Source: Chloroflexota bacterium (lineage in GTDB: Bacteria > Chloroflexota > Limnocylindria > Limnocylindrales > CSP1-4). Taken from it: a stretch of DNA of 64,000 nucleotides. The notes beneath the pieces were generated by a model. It was not told the origin of the DNA. It worked only from the letters and a program-made list of their open reading frames with translations, and did not search any database. The stretch's first letter is position 1. Each line of letters starts with the position of its first letter. The stretch lies in assembly GCA_021813655.1 (NCBI GenBank), contig JAKAJU010000072.1:853-64852 (forward strand), written 5' to 3'. Below, in pieces: positions 9,112 through 15,863 of this stretch. A program made the position numbers and the translations under genes.

Positions 9112-10095
9112 ATGAAGGCCAGCGTCTATCACGCGCCTGGAGGTCCAGGGGTCCTCCGATACGAGGACGTGCCGGACCCCGTGACCGGCGAGGCGGAGAT
9201 CCTCGTCCGGATCGAGGCGATCAGCCTCGAGGGCGGCGACCGCGGCCACCGGGCCGGTGACCCCTCGCTCGCTGCCCCGGCCGGCGTCGGCTACCAGTGC
9301 GCCGGCACCGTCGTGGCGGTCGGCGGCGGGGTCACCCGGTTCCACGAGGGCGACAGGGTGGTGACCATCGGGGAGTCGGGGTCGCACGCCGAGCTCCGCG
9401 CCGTGGCCGAAAGGACGGCCTGGCGAATCCCGGCCGGTCTGTCGACGGATCGGGCGGCGTGCGTTCCGATCCCGTTCGGCACCGCCGACGACTCGCTCTT
9501 CGAGTACGGCCGGCTCGCGGCCGGCGAGACCGTCCTCATCCACGCGGGGGCGGGCGGCGTGGGGCTGGCCGCCATCCAGCTCGCCGGGCGGGCCGGGGCG
9601 CGGGTGATCGTGACCGCGTCGGGCGAGGGCAGGCTCGCCCGCCTGGCGGACTTCGGGGCGGCGCGGGGCATCGCCATCGAGGGGATCGACCACGTGACGT
9701 CGGACTTCGTCACCGAGGTCCGACGCCTCACCGGCGGTCACGGCGCGGACGTGGTCCTCAACACGCTCGGCAGCGTGACCCTGCGCGGCAGTCTCGCGGC
9801 GCTTGCCATCGGCGGGCGCTGCGTGACGATCCGCGACTTCGCGGGCCTGACCGCCCAGGGCGTCGACGCGGCCGCGCTGAAGGCCAGGGGCCAGGTCCTG
9901 GTCGCGTACTACCTGGGCGCGGAGATGGCCCGTGGCCCCCGCCTGTACCGGCTCGTCGGGCGACACCTCGCGGACGTCGCGGAGGGTCGGCTCGACGTCA
10001 TCATCGACCGCACGTTCCCGCTGTCAGAGGCGGCGGCAGCCCACGCCTACGTCGAGGAGCGCCGCGCCTTCGGGCGGGTCCTGCTCGTGCCATGA
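9112..10095 (+). CDS. NADPH:quinone oxidoreductase / zinc-type alcohol dehydrogenase family (MDR)
   Basis: MKASVYHAPGGPGVLRYEDVPDP..., with a GAGGVG Rossmann motif. RBS GGAGG precedes it. Confidence 0.85.
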   Translation: MKASVYHAPGGPGVLRYEDVPDPVTGEAEILVRIEAISLEGGDRGHRAGDPSLAAPAGVGYQCAGTVVAVGGGVTRFHEGDRVVTIGESGSHAELRAVAERTAWRIPAGLSTDRAACVPIPFGTADDSLFEYGRLAAGETVLIHAGAGGVGLAAIQLAGRAGARVIVTASGEGRLARLADFGAARGIAIEGIDHVTSDFVTEVRRLTGGHGADVVLNTLGSVTLRGSLAALAIGGRCVTIRDFAGLTAQGVDAAALKARGQVLVAYYLGAEMARGPRLYRLVGRHLADVAEGRLDVIIDRTFPLSEAAAAHAYVEERRAFGRVLLVP

Positions 10096-10664
10096 GTCGC
10101 GTGCGGCTCGCGCGGCGTGTCCGGTCCGCCGCCTGCGGTGGGTCGTCGGGCTTCGCGCGACTCGCGCGCCTCACCTGAGGCCGCGCCGCCCAGGAGGCGC
10201 TCGACGATCACGACGTCTCGCCATCTCCCATCGAGCCGGGCGTGGCGCCGGTAGACGCCGACCTCACGGAAGCCGACGCGCGCGAGGAGCCGCCGGCTGG
10301 CGGCGTTCTCGACGAATGCGCGCGAGAGGAGCTTCCACAATCCGGCCGACTCCGCCGCGGCGATGAGGGCCTCCATCACCTCGCGGCCGACGCCCTGGCC
10401 ACGGTGCTCGCGGGCCACGTAGACACCGAACTCGGCGACGCCCGCGTAGCACTCGCGCTGCCGATAGGCGGTCGTCTCGGCGAACGCGATGACCGCGCCG
10501 TCGCGCTCCGCGACGACGATCGGGTGGATGCCGTCGAACCACGCGAGCACGTCGTCGGGGGTCCGCGGCCGCGTCTCGAAGGTGGCGCTGCGGTCCTCGA
10601 TCCCCTCGTTGTAGATCCGGGCGATCGCGGCGGCGTCGGCGGGCGTCGCCAGGCGGGTGCTCAT
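10047..10664 (-). CDS. phosphinothricin/methionine-sulfoximine N-acetyltransferase-family GNAT (ArsN1-like, candidate arsinothricin acetyltransferase)
   Basis: PAT-family signature: IYNEGIEDRSATFE, RGQGVGREVMEALI, VGFREVGVYRRHARLDGRWRDVVIVERLL. It sits next to arsR-arsP and its 3' end overlaps the convergent QOR gene by 49 bp. Confidence 0.7.
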   Translation of the reverse strand: MSTRLATPADAAAIARIYNEGIEDRSATFETRPRTPDDVLAWFDGIHPIVVAERDGAVIAFAETTAYRQRECYAGVAEFGVYVAREHRGQGVGREVMEALIAAAESAGLWKLLSRAFVENAASRRLLARVGFREVGVYRRHARLDGRWRDVVIVERLLGGAASGEARESREARRPTAGGGPDTPREPHATHGTSRTRPKARRSST

Positions 10665-10802
10665 GACGGGCTGGAGTCTAGCGGCCGTCCATCGGGGCCG
10701 CCCGCCGTCCATCGCGGGCGCCTGTCGGTGCCAACCAGCCCGCCCGTCGGTGCCATTCGGCCCTCATATACATCAGCGCGGATTGACACACTCCCGGCTG
10801 AG

Positions 10803-11141
10803 ATGTCCGCCCGCGGCTCCGTCCTGCCGATCCTCCCGACGCCTCGGCTCGACCTGCCCGCACCCGATGTCACCGCACCCGTCGGGCTCGCGGCGCTCAT
10901 CGCGGATCCGACCCGCGCAGGCATCCTGGCGATGCTCCGAAGCGGTCCGCACTGCGTCTGCGAGATGGCCGCCGCCCTCGGCGAGCGTCAGAACAACGTC
11001 TCGATGCATCTCGCGCGCCTCCGCGATGCGGGGCTCGTCCGCGCGAGCCGCCACGACGCCGACGCGCGCTGGGTCTACTACGAGCGCGACGAGGAGGCCT
11101 GCGCTGCGGCCGCCACCGCGCTCGACGGACTCCTCCGATGA
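10803..11141 (+). CDS. arsR: ArsR/SmtB-family metalloregulator
   Basis: HTH with a CVCE motif (GPHCVCEMAAAL). Its stop overlaps the arsP ATG (ATGA). Confidence 0.85.
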   Translation: MSARGSVLPILPTPRLDLPAPDVTAPVGLAALIADPTRAGILAMLRSGPHCVCEMAAALGERQNNVSMHLARLRDAGLVRASRHDADARWVYYERDEEACAAAATALDGLLR

Positions 11142-12187
11142 CGACCCTGGCGGTTCGCCGGACCGGGTTCCCGTTCTGGCTCGGTGTGGCGGCAGCTGTC
11201 GCCGCGTGGCTCGTCGCGTGGCTCGTCGCCGCCCCTCTCGCGCTCTGGGTCACCTTCGAGCTCCTCCCCTTCGACGTCGGCACGCCCCTCGGCGACGCCG
11301 TGGCGTTCTTCCTCTACGACGTTCCCAAGGTCCTCCTCCTGCTCCTCGGGATCGTCACCGTCGTCACGCTCGTCCGTGGCTTCTTCCCGCCGGAGAAGGT
11401 GCGCGGCGCGCTCGTGGGGCGCGGAGAGGTCGTCGGTACCGTCGGTGCCGCCGGGCTCGGGATCGTCACGCCGTTCTGCTCCTGCTCTGCGGTGCCCCTG
11501 TTCATCGGCTTCGTGGAGGCGGGCGTGCCCCTGGGCGTGACGTTCGCGTTCCTCATCAGCAGCCCGATGGTCAACGAGGTCGCGCTCGTCCTCCTGTGGG
11601 GCCTGTTCGGTCCGACGGTCGCGCTCGTGTACATGGTCGCGGGCCTGTCGGTCGCGATCGTCGGCGGCCTCGTCATCGGCCGGCTGCACATGGAGCGCTA
11701 CGTCGCGGACTACGTCTGGGAGCTGCAGGGTGCCGGCACCGGCGCCTCGCTCGAGATCAAGCTCACGTGGGAGGACCGGGTTCGCGACGCCTGGGCATAC
11801 ACGGAGGGACTCGTCAAGCGGATCCTGCCGTACATCCTCGTGGGCATCGGCGTCGGCGCCTTCATCCACGGCTTCGTGCCGGCGGACCTCGTCATGGCGG
11901 TCGCGGGACCGGGCAACCCGCTCGCGGTCCCGATCGTCGTCCTCCTCGGTGTCCCGCTCTACTCGAACGCCGCGGGGACGATCCCGATCGTCCAGGCGCT
12001 CCTCGGCAAGGGGATGGCGGTGGGCACGACGCTCGCATTCATGATGGCGACCACCGCGATCAGCCTGCCCGAGCTGATCATCCTCAGGAACGTGATGAAG
12101 ACCCGCCTGCTCGCCGTCTTCGTCGCGATCGTGACCGCGGGGATCCTCTTCGTCGGCTACCTCTTCAACGTCCTCATCTACACCTGA
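11138..12187 (+). CDS. arsP: ArsP-type organoarsenical efflux permease (DUF318 permease family)
   Basis: Multi-TM protein with the TPFCSCS motif (GIVTPFCSCSAVPLF) characteristic of ArsP. Confidence 0.8.
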   Translation: MTTLAVRRTGFPFWLGVAAAVAAWLVAWLVAAPLALWVTFELLPFDVGTPLGDAVAFFLYDVPKVLLLLLGIVTVVTLVRGFFPPEKVRGALVGRGEVVGTVGAAGLGIVTPFCSCSAVPLFIGFVEAGVPLGVTFAFLISSPMVNEVALVLLWGLFGPTVALVYMVAGLSVAIVGGLVIGRLHMERYVADYVWELQGAGTGASLEIKLTWEDRVRDAWAYTEGLVKRILPYILVGIGVGAFIHGFVPADLVMAVAGPGNPLAVPIVVLLGVPLYSNAAGTIPIVQALLGKGMAVGTTLAFMMATTAISLPELIILRNVMKTRLLAVFVAIVTAGILFVGYLFNVLIYT

Positions 12188-12225
12188 GACACGCCGCGTC
12201 CGTCCACACGAAGGAGCCAGACAGC

Positions 12226-12474
12226 ATGAAGACGATCGAGGTCCTCGGACCCGGCTGCAGCAACTGCCAGCGCCTCGAGAAGAACGCCCGCGAGGCCGTC
12301 GCGATGGCCGGCGTCGAGGCGGAGGTGGTCCACGTGACCGATCCGCGCGAGATCGTCGCGCACGGGATCCTGTCCACCCCCGGCCTGATCATCGACGGGA
12401 AGATCCGCTCCTATGGACGGGTCCCGTCCGCCGGCGACATCGCGGTCTGGCTCTCCGACGCCCGAGGCGCTTGA
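12226..12474 (+). CDS. thioredoxin-like small redox-active disulfide protein
   Basis: 82 aa, MKTIEVLGPGCSNCQRLEKNAREA..., with a CxxC. RBS AAGGAG precedes it. Typical companion of permease genes in ars clusters. Confidence 0.75.
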   Translation: MKTIEVLGPGCSNCQRLEKNAREAVAMAGVEAEVVHVTDPREIVAHGILSTPGLIIDGKIRSYGRVPSAGDIAVWLSDARGA

Positions 12475-12548
12475 CCTTGAACCAGAGTGAACCTGCAGGA
12501 TGCTGACCTGACCCCGACCGAGACCACCGACTCGATGGGAGACGACCG

Positions 12549-13640
12549 ATGACCCGACTCCTCGCGCGCCTGGAGGACTTCCGGCTCCTGCCCGTCTTCG
12601 TCATCGTGAGCATGGCGATCGGGATCCTCATCGGGAACGCCCTGTCGATCTCGGACTTCACGCTCACGCCGCCGATCGACGCGCTCAAGTCGATCGCCGC
12701 GGGGACGTTCGAGCCGACGGTGCCCGCCCTGATCAGCCTCGGCGTCCCGCTCGGCCTGTTCGCGATGATGTACCCGGCCATGACGAACGTCCGCGTGACG
12801 GAGGTGGGACGGGCCGTCCGCTCTCCGCGCCAGCTCGGCGTCGTGCTCGTCGCGAACTACCTCGTCGCGCCGTTCTTCATGCTCCTGCTCGCGAACGTCT
12901 TCGTGGCGGACCCGGAGCTGCGGACGGGCCTCATCCTCTACGGCCTGGCGCCCTGCATCGCGATGGTGATCATCTTCACCTACCTCGCGAAGGGGAACGT
13001 CCCGATGGCGCTCGTCTTCGTGGCGCTCAACTCGGTCGTCCAGATGCTCCTCATCCCTGTCTACGCACGCCTGCTCATCGGCGATGTGAGCTTCGACGTC
13101 TGGGTCGTCGCGGAGAGCGTCGTCCTCTACCTCGGGCTGCCCCTCGTCGCGGGCGTCCTCACCCGCCAGACGGTCGTGCGGCGGGGCGGCGAGGAGGCGA
13201 TGGAGCGCCTGAAGCCCGGCCTGAACGCACTGTCGATCCTCGGCCTGCTCTTCACGCTCATCGTCATGTTCGCCCTGAAGGGCGACCTGATCCTCCAGCG
13301 CCCCCAGATCGTCCTCGAGATGGCGATCCCGATGGCGATCTTCTTCCTGGTCATGTTCGCCGTCGTCTACCTCGTCGGTGCGCGCCTCCGCTTCCCGTAC
13401 GAGGACGCCGTCGCGGTCGCGTTCAACTCGACCGGGCGCGACTTCGAGATCGCGATCGCCATCGCGATCACCGCGTTCAGCCCCACCGTCGCGCTGGCGA
13501 CCGTCGTGGGCCCCCTCATCGAGGTCCCGGTCATGCTCGCGCTGGTGTGGGGGGCGATGCGCCTCCGACCGCGACTCTTCGGCGGCTCTGAGCCGGCCGG
13601 CGCGCCGGTGACGGGCGGTGCGGCGCTCAGCGCGAAGTAG
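12549..13640 (+). CDS. acr3: ACR3-family arsenite efflux transporter
   Basis: 363-aa polytopic protein with BASS/ACR3 fold motifs (LGLFAMMYPAMTNV, GLAPCIAMVIIFT). Confidence 0.9.
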   Translation: MTRLLARLEDFRLLPVFVIVSMAIGILIGNALSISDFTLTPPIDALKSIAAGTFEPTVPALISLGVPLGLFAMMYPAMTNVRVTEVGRAVRSPRQLGVVLVANYLVAPFFMLLLANVFVADPELRTGLILYGLAPCIAMVIIFTYLAKGNVPMALVFVALNSVVQMLLIPVYARLLIGDVSFDVWVVAESVVLYLGLPLVAGVLTRQTVVRRGGEEAMERLKPGLNALSILGLLFTLIVMFALKGDLILQRPQIVLEMAIPMAIFFLVMFAVVYLVGARLRFPYEDAVAVAFNSTGRDFEIAIAIAITAFSPTVALATVVGPLIEVPVMLALVWGAMRLRPRLFGGSEPAGAPVTGGAALSAK

Positions 13641-13688: not shown

Positions 13689-14492
13689 TCAGCAGGAGCC
13701 GTCCCCGCCGCAGCAGCCGCCGCTGGCCGTCTGGTCCCGGGCAGCCAGGTCGACGACGGGCCGCGCGTCGGTCGGCTTCGTGGCCTTGACGATCGCGCTG
13801 ATCATGCCGTCGGTGACTGTCTGGGTCGGCGTGATCGAGATGTCGACCATGCCGGCGGACTCGAGGCCGGCGCGATACTCCGCGAACGACAGCGCCCCGG
13901 CGATGCACCCGGCATACGATCCCCGCTCCGCCCGCTCCTCCGCCGACAGCCTGTCCTCCGCGACGATGTCGGCGATCCCGATCCGGCCGCCGGGACGCAG
14001 GACCCTGCCGATCTCCCGGAAGACCGCCGGCTTGTCCGCCGCGAGATTCACGACGCAGTTGCTGATCACGACGTCGATCAAGTCGGCAGGCAGCGGGATC
14101 GCCTCGATGTGGCCCTTGAGGAACTCGACGTTCGTCGCGCCCGCCTCGGCTGCGTTGCGCTGGGCGAGCGCGAGCATCTCGTCGGTCATGTCGAGGCCGA
14201 ACGCCCGCCCGGTCGGACCGACGCGCTTCGCCGAGAGCAGGACGTCGATCCCGCCGCCGGACCCGAGGTCGAGGACGCGCTCTCCCTCGCGGAGCTCGGC
14301 GACCGCCGTCGGGTTGCCGCAGCCGAGCGACGCCAGCACGGCCGCATCCGGAAGGTCCTGCTGCTCCAGCACGGTGTACAGCGACGCGCCGACCGCTTCG
14401 GGAGCACGGGTGGCCGACGCGCCCTCGGCTGCCCTGACGGCCGCCGCACTGTAGTGAGCGCGTACCTCTTCGCGGATCGCGTCGGTCGTCAA
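13689..14492 (-). CDS. arsM: arsenite S-adenosylmethionine methyltransferase
   Basis: Class I SAM-MTase motifs (VLDLGSGGGIDV) plus ArsM-type Cys residues, including a C-terminal Cys cluster. Probable TTG start at 14492 with RBS AGGAG; the track ORF extends to 14615. Confidence 0.8.
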   Translation of the reverse strand: MTTDAIREEVRAHYSAAAVRAAEGASATRAPEAVGASLYTVLEQQDLPDAAVLASLGCGNPTAVAELREGERVLDLGSGGGIDVLLSAKRVGPTGRAFGLDMTDEMLALAQRNAAEAGATNVEFLKGHIEAIPLPADLIDVVISNCVVNLAADKPAVFREIGRVLRPGGRIGIADIVAEDRLSAEERAERGSYAGCIAGALSFAEYRAGLESAGMVDISITPTQTVTDGMISAIVKATKPTDARPVVDLAARDQTASGGCCGGDGSC

Positions 14493-14511: not shown

Positions 14512-14551
14512 GGTATCGAGACTTGACTATATCGAATGCCATCAATACCAT
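14512..14551. promoter_or_regulatory. arsR2 promoter (TTGACT 14523-14528, 17-nt spacer, TACCAT 14546-14551; leaderless ATG at 14558) overlapping the inverted repeat GGTATCGA...TCAATACC
   Basis: Read directly in the divergent arsM/arsR2 intergenic region. Confidence 0.45.
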
Positions 14552-14557
14552 CGGGCG

Positions 14558-14902
14558 ATGAAGCGCCAGACCGACCCGGACATCCTGCTCCTCCAGGGTG
14601 CGGCCGACCCGACACGGCTCGCGATCCTCCGGCGCCTGAGCAGCGAGGGCGAGGTCTGTGCCTGCGAGTTCACGTCGTGCTGCGGCGTGAGCCAGCCGAC
14701 GACCTCGCATCACCTCAAGGTGCTCCGGGAGACCGGATGGGTCGACGCGGAGCGTCGCGGGTCCTGGGTCTACTACAGCCTCCGCCCAGCGGCCGTGGCA
14801 AGCCTGCGGGCGCTCGTGGGCACGATCGAACCGGTCGCCGTCAGCCCGGTCAGGGCCACGACCGCGAGCCGCCGGCTCTCCGTCGTCCAGGCGACGGCCT
14901 GA
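14558..14902 (+). CDS. arsR: ArsR/SmtB-family metalloregulator (second copy)
   Basis: MKRQTDPDILLLQGAADPTRLAILRRL.. EVCACEF: As(III)-type Cys pair in the HTH. Confidence 0.85.
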   Translation: MKRQTDPDILLLQGAADPTRLAILRRLSSEGEVCACEFTSCCGVSQPTTSHHLKVLRETGWVDAERRGSWVYYSLRPAAVASLRALVGTIEPVAVSPVRATTASRRLSVVQATA

Positions 14903-14941: not shown

Positions 14942-15778
14942 TCAGGAGGGCGTGGCCCCCGCGCCAGCCCGGCGCGCCACCTCGATGAACGGGCGGATCC
15001 GCGCGGTCAGCTCCATCACGGTGCGCTCGAAGGCCGCGAGCTTGTCCTCGTCCGTTCCCGTGACCTCAGCCGGATCGTCGAGGCCCCAGTGGAGCGCGTC
15101 GTGCTCGCCCGGGAAGACCGGGCACGCCTGGCGGGCGCGGTCGCACACGGTGATCACGTAATCCCAGGGCTCGCCGACGAACTCCGTCACCGACGTCGAG
15201 CGCGCCCCCGACCAGTCGATCCCGACGGCGGCGAGCGCGCGGATCGTGTACGGGTTCACGCCCGCGGGCTCAGTGCCGGCCGATCGCACCTCGAACGCGG
15301 CGCCACCGAATCGGCCGAGGAGCGCCTCGGCCATCTGGCTCCGAGCGGAGTTGCCCGTGCAGACGAAGAGCACCCGGATCGGGCGGTCGGACATCGTCGC
15401 GTCTCCCGTGGCGCGGCCGGCGGCCGCGATCGTCTCCTCCAGGTCGGCGAGCTCGGCCTCGAGGCGGTCGAGCTCCTCGCGCCGGGCCGCGATCGTCGCG
15501 CGCTGCGCCGCGATGAGCGGTGCCAGGTCCAGGTCGGGCGCGCCACGCTCGACGCACAGCGCCGCGAGCCGCCCGGCATCCTGCGGGGGAAGCCCCAGCC
15601 GCCGCAGCGCCACGACGACCCGCAGTCGGGCGAGGTCGTCGTCGGTGTACTCGCGATACCCGTTCGCCTCGCGTCGAGCGAGCGGCAGCACGCCTGCCGC
15701 CTCGTAGAAGCGGACGGCGGATGCGGCCACCCCGGAGCGTCTGGCCAGCTCGGAGACCTTCACGGCCCGACCGTACAC
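14942..15778 (-). CDS. arsC: MerR-family HTH domain fused to low-molecular-weight phosphatase-type arsenate reductase (ArsC, LMWP family)
   Basis: N-terminal VKVSELARRSGVAASAVRFYE (MerR HTH plus coiled coil). C-terminal VLFVCTGNSARSQMAE (CX5R P-loop of LMW-PTP ArsC). One continuous frame. Confidence 0.8.
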   Translation of the reverse strand: MYGRAVKVSELARRSGVAASAVRFYEAAGVLPLARREANGYREYTDDDLARLRVVVALRRLGLPPQDAGRLAALCVERGAPDLDLAPLIAAQRATIAARREELDRLEAELADLEETIAAAGRATGDATMSDRPIRVLFVCTGNSARSQMAEALLGRFGGAAFEVRSAGTEPAGVNPYTIRALAAVGIDWSGARSTSVTEFVGEPWDYVITVCDRARQACPVFPGEHDALHWGLDDPAEVTGTDEDKLAAFERTVMELTARIRPFIEVARRAGAGATPS

Positions 15779-15796
15779 CTTCGAGTCACTCGAAGG
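15778..15796. promoter_or_regulatory. 19-bp perfect palindrome CCTTCGAGT(C)ACTCGAAGG abutting the merR-arsC start
   Basis: Read directly. Odd-centred dyad immediately 5' of the GTG at 15778. Confidence 0.4.
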
Positions 15797-15863
15797 TCAA
15801 GGGGTGGCAGGCGGCGGCGGGGGTGTGAGGCGACCGCGCTCGCGCACGTGGGCCGCGCGATCG

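What the first reader, a model, noticed from the sequence alone, without database searches (positions are those of the whole stretch)
14942..15796. MerR-family DNA-binding domain fused in frame to LMW-phosphatase-type arsenate reductase, with a 19-bp palindrome at its start
The frame is continuous from a MerR HTH and coiled-coil region into a complete ArsC (CTGNSARS P-loop). ArsC is normally a free-standing enzyme and ars regulators are ArsR-type. A MerR::ArsC fusion would be an unusual architecture. It could be a one-component arsenate-sensing regulator or a moonlighting enzyme. The odd-centred palindrome CCTTCGAGT(C)ACTCGAAGG abuts its start codon and could be its operator.
Basis: seen in the sequence. 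Interest (0 to 1): 0.55.

Follow-up and report, generated by a model that had tools for sequence, protein, structure and literature searches.

The report
Self-regulating MerR–arsenate reductase fusion
A soil Chloroflexota genome encodes an arsenate-detoxifying enzyme fused to a MerR-type DNA-binding domain that sits on a conserved palindrome inside its own promoter, which makes it a likely and so far undescribed kind of arsenic-sensing gene switch.

Summary
One open frame on the minus strand joins a MerR winged-helix and dimerisation helix to a complete thioredoxin-type LMW-phosphatase ArsC. The palindrome is 21 bp (15777-15797), not 19 bp. The true start is GTG 15763 (273 aa), not GTG 15778.

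The fusion is not an assembly artefact. Four independent assemblies give the identical ORF. More than 120 protein clusters and about 60 species-level genomes carry it, almost all Candidatus Limnocylindria.

The palindrome fills the 19-nt spacer between TTGACC and TACGGT, and the start codon follows 6 nt later, so the mRNA is leaderless. This layout recurs in 54 related loci while the flanks are unconserved. It mirrors the E. coli CueR/PcopA operator.

In other genomes the same operator also precedes acr3, a second ArsC, an aquaglyceroporin and a metallophosphoesterase. All catalytic residues are kept in 120 of 120 main-clade members.

The best reading is an autoregulated, arsenic-responsive MerR activator that uses ArsC as its effector domain. 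The nature of the signal is inferred, not shown. The closest known analogue is the ArsR-ArsC fusion. I found no description of a MerR-ArsC fusion.

The parts
14942..15763 (-). merR-arsC coding sequence as corrected: 273 aa, GTG start at 15763, stop codon included
   Evidence: ORF list. The start was reassigned from 54 related loci that have ATG or GTG at the homologous position. The identical protein is found in 4 independent assemblies.
15413..15763 (-). MerR module, residues 1-117: winged helix-turn-helix plus a 42-residue dimerisation helix
   Evidence: Pfam MerR_1, MerR and MerR-DNA-bind. AlphaFold2 places helices at 3-10, 14-22, 41-55, 60-73 and 76-117. The best solved relatives are CueR and SkgA.
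15380..15412 (-). Flexible linker, residues 118-128
   Evidence: pLDDT is 59-65, and below 50 at residues 119-121. Length varies in alignment A1. One orthologue, L062, carries about 40 extra residues in frame.
14960..15379 (-). ArsC domain, residues 129-268: LMW-phosphatase fold of the thioredoxin-coupled type
   Evidence: Pfam LMWPc 9e-18. TIGR02691 arsC_pI258_fam scores 116 bits. PDB 8p5n, D. indicus ArsC2, scores 5e-37 by sequence and TM 0.92-0.95 by fold.
15338..15361 (-). P-loop C135-T-G-N-S-A-R141-S, holding the nucleophilic Cys and the oxyanion-binding Arg
   Evidence: Read directly from the sequence. It aligns to Cys10/Arg16 of B. subtilis ArsC. It is conserved in 120 of 120 main-clade fusions.
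15122..15145 (-). Redox-relay segment C207-DRARQA-C214, equivalent to Cys82/Cys89 of pI258 ArsC
   Evidence: Alignment to 1jl3 and 8p5n. Conserved in the main clade.
15074..15076 (-). Asp230, equivalent to the catalytic Asp105
   Evidence: Alignment. Conserved in 123 of 124 sequences.
15554..15556 (-). Cys70 in MerR helix 4: nearly invariant, role unknown
   Evidence: Present in 122 of 124 sequences. My hand alignment to CueR, with the CueR sequence taken from memory and not tool-verified, places it at Phe70 and not at the metal-ligand position 77.
15777..15797 (.). 21-bp perfect dyad ACCTTCGAGT-c-ACTCGAAGGT: the predicted operator
   Evidence: Unique in the window. Conserved in 54 loci with flanks near 0 bits. 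Both arms change together in a 56%-identical orthologue.
15795..15800 (-). -35 hexamer TTGACC
   Evidence: TTGACC or TTGACA is present in all 54 loci that matched the promoter pattern.
15770..15775 (-). -10 hexamer TACGGT, exactly 19 nt after the -35
   Evidence: TTGACM-N19-TANNNT occurs once in the window against 0 expected.
15761..15763 (-). GTG start codon and predicted transcription start, giving a leaderless mRNA
   Evidence: The start codon lies 6 nt (47 loci) or 7 nt (7 loci) after the -10 hexamer, which leaves no room for a ribosome-binding site.
14558..14902 (+). arsR, convergent with merR-arsC and divergent from arsM
   Evidence: Pfam HTH_5. Gene call.
13689..14492 (-). arsM-like SAM methyltransferase
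   Evidence: Pfam Methyltransf_31. Gene call.
10803..13640 (+). arsR2-arsP-thioredoxin_3-acr3 operon: the rest of the ars island
   Evidence: Pfam HTH_5, ArsP_1, Thioredoxin_3 and SBF. Coordinates.

Best explanation
The gene encodes a 273-aa MerR-family transcription factor. In place of the usual C-terminal effector-binding module it carries a complete, catalytically competent thioredoxin-type arsenate reductase.

As a dimer it binds the 21-bp dyad that fills the over-long 19-nt spacer of its own promoter (TTGACC-N19-TACGGT). As in other MerR regulators, the promoter is poor until the effector-loaded protein distorts the DNA and realigns the -35 and -10 elements. Transcription then starts at the GTG itself, giving a leaderless mRNA.

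The proposed signal is arsenic engaging the ArsC domain. It is most likely arsenate, read out either as P-loop occupancy or as the Cys135 to Cys207 to Cys214 thiol/disulfide state that accumulates during turnover and is reset by thioredoxin. Arsenate would thus induce its own reductase. The arsenite produced would then de-repress the neighbouring ArsR-controlled arsM and arsP-trx-acr3 units. In other genomes the same operator also drives acr3, a second ArsC, an aquaglyceroporin and a metallophosphoesterase.

What is shown: the architecture, the promoter and operator geometry and their conservation, the ars context, and the conservation of catalytic residues. What is inferred: DNA binding, activation rather than repression, the identity of the signal, and the coupling between the domains.
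For: Domains and fold.

The fusion is real and widespread. The top 120 hits all carry MerR plus LMWPc at 271-289 aa. About 60 species-level genomes carry it. Four assemblies give the identical ORF.

Promoter and operator. The layout -35, 19 nt, -10, then 6-7 nt to ATG/GTG occurs in 54 loci. The dyad is strongly conserved while flanks are near 0 bits. Raw upstream regions examined without any filter show the same picture. In a 56%-identical orthologue both half-sites changed together.

The geometry and the outer half-site bases (ACCTTC/GAAGGT) match the E. coli CueR operator at PcopA. CueR is also the best-scoring MerR relative.

Arsenic regulon. acr3 lies directly downstream in 6 loci. Extra operator copies precede acr3, a metallophosphoesterase and a divergent arsC-metallophosphoesterase-MIP operon.

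C135, R141, C207, C214 and D230 are kept in 120 of 120 main-clade proteins. There is no other arsC in the 64-kb window. The analogous ArsR-ArsC fusion improves arsenate sensing (Chen et al. 2022, as cited and summarised in PMC9479143 and PMC11672702).
Against: There are no experimental data of any kind.

In this window the operator controls only the fusion gene itself, and no second site exists in 64 kb. The regulatory pay-off here is therefore autoregulation only.

The linker is flexible and tolerates a 40-residue insertion in one genome. That argues against rigid mechanical coupling between the ArsC domain and the coiled coil.

The ArsC domain scores below NCBIfam's equivalog cut-off, 116 against 174 bits.

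Two ArsR repressors already sit in the island, so a further arsenic sensor is not strictly required.

A nearly invariant Cys70 in the MerR part has no assigned role and could point to a different (thiol or As(III)) signal.
Confidence: 0.6

Rival explanations
1. Arsenite sensor by product channelling, as in ArsR-ArsC fusions. The ArsC domain reduces arsenate. The As(III) released is captured by thiols of the regulator, for example Cys70 of the partner subunit together with Cys207/Cys214, and this As(III)-thiolate complex is the activating ligand.
For: [quoted passage not shown] Cys70 is present in 122 of 124 fusions. A long flexible linker suits a tethered-enzyme model better than rigid allostery.
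Against: The MerR part has only one conserved Cys, and by my hand alignment to CueR it is not at the canonical metal-ligand positions. As(III) sites normally need two or three thiolates. Two ArsR As(III) sensors already exist in the island. P0060 lacks Cys70.
Confidence: 0.2
2. No allosteric coupling. The MerR module autoregulates in response to something else, or only sets a fixed expression level. The ArsC domain is a passenger enzyme whose fusion merely guarantees co-expression, or tethers the reductase near the DNA.
For: The linker is flexible and variable in length. The ArsC domain is fully catalytic, so enzyme function alone could explain its conservation.
Against: A MerR core without any effector module has no way to switch, and in the MerR family the module after the dimerisation helix is the effector site. 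The fusion has stayed intact across about 60 species, although related free-standing ArsC genes exist in the same phylum (loci L063-L076). Rare variants with a dead ArsC domain still keep the fusion, and at least one keeps the operator.
Confidence: 0.1
3. General thiol or disulfide-stress sensor. The three-cysteine LMW-phosphatase domain acts as a redox switch, oxidised when the thioredoxin pool is oxidised, independent of arsenic.
For: The Cys207-Cys214 disulfide of this enzyme class is reduced by thioredoxin, so its state reports the thioredoxin redox state. MerR-family redox sensors exist (SoxR and NmlR appear among the weak NCBIfam hits).
Against: The gene and its operator are found almost only in arsenic gene clusters, and the extra operator copies precede arsenic genes. 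The oxyanion-binding residues N138 and R141 are invariant even in the variant that has lost all three cysteines.
Confidence: 0.08
4. Assembly or sequencing artefact: a lost stop codon or a frameshift that joins two separate genes.
For: The window comes from a metagenome-assembled genome.
Against: The identical ORF occurs in 4 independent assemblies. More than 120 distinct protein clusters of 271-289 aa have the same architecture. About 60 species-level genomes carry it.
Confidence: 0.01

Closest known systems
ArsR-ArsC (ArsRC) fusion proteins, e.g. Paracoccus sp. ArsRC (Chen, Galvan, Nadar, Yoshinaga, Rosen 2022, Environ Microbiol 24:1977; known here only through citations in PMC9479143 and PMC11672702)
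   Same: A transcription factor is fused to an LMW-phosphatase-type arsenate reductase inside an ars cluster. The reported effect is better sensing of arsenate. ArsR-LMWPc fusions are numerous among relatives of this ArsC domain.
   Different: The DNA-binding module here is MerR (an activator type that distorts a promoter with a long spacer), not ArsR/SmtB (a repressor released by As(III)). The MerR part has no recognisable As(III) site. The operator lies between -35 and -10. The regulatory logic is expected to be positive.
CueR / ZntR / MerR heavy-metal-responsive MerR regulators (E. coli CueR at PcopA)
   Same: Winged HTH plus a long antiparallel dimerisation helix. The operator is a dyad inside a 19-nt spacer. 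The -35 TTGACC and the outer half-site bases ACCTTC/GAAGGT are identical to PcopA.
   Different: The short C-terminal metal-binding loop (Cys112/Cys120 in CueR) is absent and is replaced by a linker and a 140-residue enzyme domain. Scores are far below the NCBIfam equivalog cut-offs. The gene is autoregulated and leaderless.
Thioredoxin-coupled arsenate reductases: S. aureus pI258 ArsC, B. subtilis ArsC, Deinococcus indicus ArsC2 (PDB 8P5N/8P6M, PMC10483234)
   Same: LMW-phosphatase fold, with TM 0.92-0.95 to DiArsC2. The P-loop CX5R, Asp and the Cys82/Cys89-type pair are all present.
   Different: Those enzymes are free-standing proteins of 130-145 aa. Here the domain is the C-terminal half of a DNA-binding protein. 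It scores below the TIGR02691 cut-off.
MerR regulators with large C-terminal effector domains (TipAL, BmrR, CarH, SkgA)
   Same: The same modular logic applies: a MerR DNA-binding and dimerisation core followed by a separate sensing domain. SkgA (7cla) is among the sequence hits for the N-terminal part. The statement about TipAL, BmrR and CarH rests on general knowledge of the family.
   Different: None of those sensing domains is an LMW phosphatase/ArsC, and none is an enzyme acting on the inducer in the way proposed here.

Membership tests
MerR family of transcription regulators | N-terminal winged helix-turn-helix of the MerR type | tested here: met
   Pfam MerR_1 59.4 bits (cut-off 21.6) and MerR 44.3 bits (cut-off 28.2). 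The fold matches CueR.
MerR family of transcription regulators | Long C-terminal coiled-coil dimerisation helix after the HTH | tested here: met
   Pfam MerR-DNA-bind 25.6 bits (cut-off 25.4). AlphaFold2 predicts a helix at 76-117. Dimerisation itself was not tested.
MerR family of transcription regulators | Dyad operator inside a promoter with an over-long (19-20 nt) -35/-10 spacer | tested here: met
   TTGACC-19 nt-TACGGT with a 21-bp dyad. Conserved in 54 loci.
MerR family of transcription regulators | Activation by effector-induced DNA distortion | not testable with these tools
   Needs in vitro transcription or footprinting.
CueR/ZntR/MerR metal-sensing subfamily | Cysteine/histidine metal-binding loop at the C-terminal end of the dimerisation helix; score above the equivalog cut-off | tested here: not met
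   No Cys lies after the dimerisation helix before the ArsC domain. CueR scores 51.8 against a cut-off of 147.4, and ZntR 50 against 168.
Thioredoxin-coupled LMW-phosphatase arsenate reductase (pI258 ArsC family) | P-loop C-X5-R with the nucleophilic Cys (Cys10) and Arg16 | tested here: met
   C135-TGNSA-R141 aligns to B. subtilis ArsC and DiArsC2. Conserved in 120 of 120 main-clade proteins.
Thioredoxin-coupled LMW-phosphatase arsenate reductase (pI258 ArsC family) | Second and third redox cysteines (Cys82, Cys89) and catalytic Asp105 | tested here: met
   C207, C214 and D230 align to these positions.
Thioredoxin-coupled LMW-phosphatase arsenate reductase (pI258 ArsC family) | Score above the curated equivalog threshold (TIGR02691) | tested here: not met
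   116.4 bits against a cut-off of 174.3. The fold match is nevertheless very close, with TM 0.92-0.95.
Thioredoxin-coupled LMW-phosphatase arsenate reductase (pI258 ArsC family) | Thioredoxin-dependent arsenate reduction | not testable with these tools
   Needs an enzyme assay with Trx, TrxR and NADPH.
ArsRC (ArsR-ArsC) fusion regulators | ArsR/SmtB-type HTH_5 domain with an As(III) site fused to ArsC | tested here: not met
   The N-terminal domain is MerR, with no HTH_5 hit. True ArsR-LMWPc fusions are separate proteins, such as P0161, P0191, P0221, P0226 and P0254.

The most novel reading that the evidence does not exclude
This would be the first MerR-family arsenic sensor and a catalysis-gated transcription factor. 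The redox or substrate state of an enzyme active site (the ArsC thiol cascade working on arsenate and reset by thioredoxin) would be the direct input that twists a MerR promoter. The cell would then measure arsenate flux rather than arsenite concentration. It would also offer a natural arsenate-specific positive switch for biosensors.
Probability: 0.35. Interest if true: 0.8.

Novelty: new variant of a known kind. Interest (0 to 1): 0.62.

Why it matters
To my knowledge, the bacterial arsenic-responsive transcription factors characterised so far are ArsR/SmtB repressors that sense As(III), plus two-component systems for arsenite oxidation. I did not test that statement with the tools. Arsenate itself is sensed only indirectly.

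A MerR-type activator with a built-in arsenate reductase would add a second, positive regulatory logic to arsenic resistance. It would show an enzyme domain recruited as a MerR effector module. It could also supply an arsenate-responsive part for whole-cell biosensors, a stated goal of the ArsRC work.

The family is abundant in metagenomes and MAGs, apparently soil, peat and fen samples judging by record and isolate names. It occurs in Candidatus Limnocylindria, a class of uncultured Chloroflexota. It may therefore shape arsenic speciation in those habitats.

The conserved, compact promoter-operator-leaderless start unit is also a ready-made, testable regulatory element from a phylum with almost no characterised promoters.

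Tried and rejected
1. Missing stop or chimera: rejected.
2. The mechanical ORF start GTG 15778: rejected in favour of GTG 15763.
3. Bosea loci L078-L082, which matched residues 52-267 and looked like distant fusions: they are tandem ArsC-ArsC genes with no MerR hit.
4. Representative hits with two matched stretches: these are tandem LMWPc proteins. Proteins of about 260-300 aa with an N-terminal offset are ArsR-LMWPc or GNAT-LMWPc fusions, not MerR fusions.
5. The palindrome as a terminator or RNA element of the upstream kinase gene: no terminator-like site and no Rfam match. The dyad is also conserved behind different upstream genes.
6. A second operator copy in this window: none at up to 4 mismatches.
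7. Another arsC in the window: none.
8. The fusion on plasmids of cultured bacteria: no hit covers at least 80% of the query.
10. Literature: five searches found no description of a MerR-ArsC protein or a MerR-type arsenic regulator. The Chen et al. 2022 ArsRC paper is not held in the library.
11. The sigma-70 scan did not report the promoter because it allows only 16-18 nt spacers.

Full report
**1. The observation.** On the minus strand an uninterrupted frame runs from 15778 to 14942.
- Pfam places MerR_1 at residues 7-71, MerR-DNA-bind at 49-113 and LMWPc at 136-264 of the 278-aa mechanical ORF.
- NCBIfam's best hit for the C-terminal half is arsC_pI258_fam, the thioredoxin-type arsenate reductase. 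The best hits for the N-terminal half are CueR and ZntR. All of these score below the curated equivalog cut-offs.
- The palindrome reported at 15778-15796 exists. It is in fact a perfect 10+1+10 dyad, ACCTTCGAGT-c-ACTCGAAGGT, at 15777-15797.
- The dyad is unique in the 64-kb window even at 3 mismatches, against 0.04 expected.

**2. The fusion is not an artefact.** Exactly this protein is encoded on contigs from four independent assemblies: ENA ERZ27237587, NCBI GCA_027399795.1, and Logan assemblies of SRR13299515 and SRR17201078.
- A search of 5.8 billion proteins returned 4745 hits at E<=1e-10. The best 120 are all 271-289 aa and carry MerR plus LMWPc.
- A scan of one genome per species found about 60 species-level genomes with the full-length gene. 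Nearly all are MAGs labelled Candidatus Limnocylindrales, Chloroflexia or Chloroflexi, judging by their names from fen, peat and soil. One is labelled Dormibacterota.
- At 50% clustering only a few clusters carry the MerR-LMWPc architecture (P0121, P0124, P0140). ArsR-LMWPc, tandem LMWPc and GNAT-LMWPc proteins are many. The MerR fusion is one compact clade.
- It is absent from 72,556 plasmid records.

**3. Start codon and promoter.** The minus strand upstream of the gene reads ...CCCC TTGACC TTCGAGTGACTCGAAGGTG TACGGT CGGGCC GTG AAG GTC TCC....
- This is a near-consensus -35 (15800-15795), a spacer of exactly 19 nt that is almost entirely the dyad, a TAnnnT -10 (15775-15770), 6 nt, and then GTG 15763. 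That GTG opens the canonical MerR N-terminus, M-K-V-S-E-L-A.
- I extracted the upstream DNA of every related locus without any filter. More than 50 of 58 show the same arrangement at the same offset.
- A pattern count gives 54 loci with TTGACC/A, 19 nt and TAnnnT. The start codon follows after 6 nt in 47 loci and after 7 nt in 7 loci. It is ATG in 45 and GTG in 9.
- Information content is near zero 30 nt upstream and in the 6-nt gap, and high across the dyad. The pattern used to select sites forces the hexamers but not the dyad bases.
- TTGACM-N19-TANNNT occurs once in the window against none in 100 shuffles.
- It follows that the true start is 15763 (273 aa), that GTG 15778 lies inside the promoter, that the mRNA is leaderless, and that the dyad sits where MerR-family operators sit.
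- In a 56%-identical orthologue (P0121, locus L085) the geometry is identical and both half-sites have changed together, to ACCTTACAGT-t-ACTGCAAGGT. This is what a dimeric protein co-evolving with its site would produce.
- E. coli PcopA, the CueR target, reads CTTGACC TTCCCCTTGCTGGAAGGTT TAACCT directly upstream of copA. It has the same -35, the same 19-nt spacer and the same outer half-site bases (ACCTTC/GAAGGT).

**4. The protein.** Numbering below is for the 273-aa protein.
- AlphaFold2 (36-sequence alignment, mean pLDDT 84) predicts a winged HTH at 1-73, one 42-residue helix at 76-117, a low-confidence linker at 118-128, and an alpha/beta domain at 129-268.
- Foldseek matches the C-terminal domain to Deinococcus indicus ArsC2 (8P5N/8P6M, TM 0.92-0.95). 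It also matches B. subtilis and S. aureus pI258 ArsC. The N-terminal part matches CueR. No solved chain covers both halves (sequence level).
- DiArsC2 is a thioredoxin-linked ArsC with Cys15, Cys87 and Cys94 (PMC10483234). These align to C135, C207 and C214 here.
- R141 and D230 align to the P-loop Arg and the catalytic Asp.
- All five residues are present in 120 of 120 main-clade fusions.
- Two rare divergent representatives have lost cysteines. P0121 has C207S. P0124 has C135S, C207S and C214R. Both keep N138 and R141. These are single short contigs and should be weighted lightly.
- Cys70 in MerR helix 4 is present in 122 of 124 sequences. Its role is unknown.
- One orthologue has an in-frame linker about 40 residues longer.

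**5. Context and regulon.** In the window the gene is monocistronic.
- It converges on arsR (14558-14902). That arsR diverges from an arsM-like methyltransferase (13689-14492).
- An arsR-arsP-thioredoxin_3-acr3 operon (10803-13640) and a GNAT gene complete an ars island.
- No other arsC is present in the 64 kb.
- The same neighbours recur in other genomes.
- In six loci acr3 follows the fusion directly on the same strand. In L013 the gap is 37 bp.
- In L026, L029, L055 and L058 the operator-promoter precedes a leaderless metallophosphoesterase gene, which is followed by the fusion.
- In L031, L032, L038, L043, L048 and L054 a second, oppositely oriented copy (TTGACA-19 nt-TAGCCT) lies tens of base pairs upstream. 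In L031, where I called the ORFs and scanned them against Pfam, it heads a divergent operon. That operon encodes an LMW-phosphatase ArsC with an N-terminal extension, the same metallophosphoesterase, and a MIP-family channel. For the other five loci only the operator copy and the divergent ArsC-like gene were seen.
- Further operator copies lie just upstream of acr3 in L014, L044 and L055.
- The site is thus associated with arsenic genes beyond the regulator itself.

**6. Mechanism.** The evidence supports a MerR-type, autoregulated transcription factor that uses an ArsC domain in the position where the family places its effector module.
- I infer activation from the 19-nt spacer with good hexamers, the hallmark of MerR-activated promoters (established knowledge of the family).
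- I infer an arsenic signal from the context and regulon.
- I favour arsenate acting through the catalytic site, for three reasons. The island already has two ArsR-type As(III) sensors. The whole catalytic apparatus is conserved. And the oxyanion-binding residues persist even where the cysteines are lost.
- The flexible, length-variable linker argues against rigid coupling. It leaves room for a docking model or an As(III)-channelling model, as reported for the Paracoccus ArsRC fusion.
- My estimates are:

| Claim | Probability |
|---|---|
| Real fusion and operator | about 0.9 |
| Arsenic-responsive regulator | about 0.7 |
| Arsenate sensed via the active-site state | about 0.35-0.4 |

**7. 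Comparison and novelty.** The protein passes the sequence, fold and operator tests for the MerR family. It fails the tests for the CueR/ZntR metal-sensing subfamily, because it has no metal loop.
- It has every catalytic residue of thioredoxin-type ArsC but scores below the equivalog threshold.
- It is not an ArsRC, because its DNA-binding fold is different.
- Automatic annotation calls it either 'MerR family transcriptional regulator' or 'arsenate reductase'.
- No curated family model reached its cut-off in the Pfam and NCBIfam scans.
- Five full-text searches found no description of it, or of any MerR-type arsenic regulator.
- I rate it a new variant of a known kind: a MerR regulator with a new effector module, and a functional analogue of ArsRC with opposite regulatory logic.

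**8. Limits.** Everything is computational.
- Only 10-kb loci around the orthologues were available, so the full regulon is unknown.
- The operator consensus was partly ascertained with a pattern, although the unfiltered view agrees.
- The dimer and its DNA complex could not be modelled.

Noticed in passing
window 14523-14560 (+): arsR (ATG 14558) also looks leaderless. A sigma-70-like site, TTGACT-17 nt-TACCAT, ends at 14551, 6 nt before the ATG. Leaderless starts may be common in this organism.
   Followed up: partly
L026 4279-5004; L058 4170-4904; L055 3948-4667; L031 3410-4138 (-): A ~240-aa calcineurin-like metallophosphoesterase with a conserved E-C-G-C-A-[YF] motif is repeatedly placed under the MerR-ArsC operator. 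It sits next to ArsC and aquaglyceroporin genes. The same ArsC, aquaporin and metallophosphoesterase annotations appear together under a Deinococcus aquaticus plasmid hit (H3). Its role in arsenic metabolism is unknown.
   Followed up: partly
L031 ~4927, L032 ~4902, L038 ~3134, L043 ~4908, L048 ~4904, L054 ~4958: A second, oppositely oriented copy of the operator-promoter (TTGACA-19 nt-TAGCCT) lies tens of base pairs upstream of the fusion's own promoter. In L031 it drives a divergent arsC(N-extended)-metallophosphoesterase-MIP operon that has a normal leader and Shine-Dalgarno sequence. The other five loci were not examined beyond the operator and the divergent ArsC-like gene.
   Followed up: partly
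P0124 (281 aa) and P0121 (282 aa; L085 305-1153): These rare divergent MerR-LMWPc proteins have lost catalytic cysteines. P0124 has lost all three and P0121 has lost the Cys82 equivalent. Both keep the P-loop Asn/Arg and Cys70. P0121 keeps the promoter geometry with a symmetrically altered dyad and is followed by a glyoxalase/VOC-like gene. These may be sensor-only forms.
   Followed up: partly
L062 5010-5945: An orthologue has an in-frame insertion of about 40 residues in the linker between the MerR helix and the ArsC domain.
   Followed up: no
window 15864-18632 (-): Directly upstream on the same strand lies a 922-aa hybrid sensor kinase (several PAS domains, HisKA, HATPase_c and a receiver domain). 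It ends 85 bp before the mechanical ORF start. No link to the ars island is evident, and other genomes have different upstream genes.
   Followed up: no
window 10047-10712 (-): A GNAT acetyltransferase lies divergent from the arsR2-arsP-trx-acr3 operon, at the edge of the ars island. It may be of the ArsN type. A GNAT-LMWPc fusion (P0265) also exists among ArsC relatives.
   Followed up: no
L078-L082 (Bosea MAGs) and P0134, P0137, P0155, P0197, P0199: Tandem LMWPc-LMWPc (double ArsC) proteins or gene pairs, and an ArsR-LMWPc-LMWPc protein (P0128, 411 aa), are common among relatives of this ArsC domain.
   Followed up: no
window 15554-15556 (-), Cys70: A nearly invariant cysteine (122 of 124) lies in MerR helix 4. 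It is not at the canonical metal-ligand position, and its function is unexplained.
   Followed up: partly
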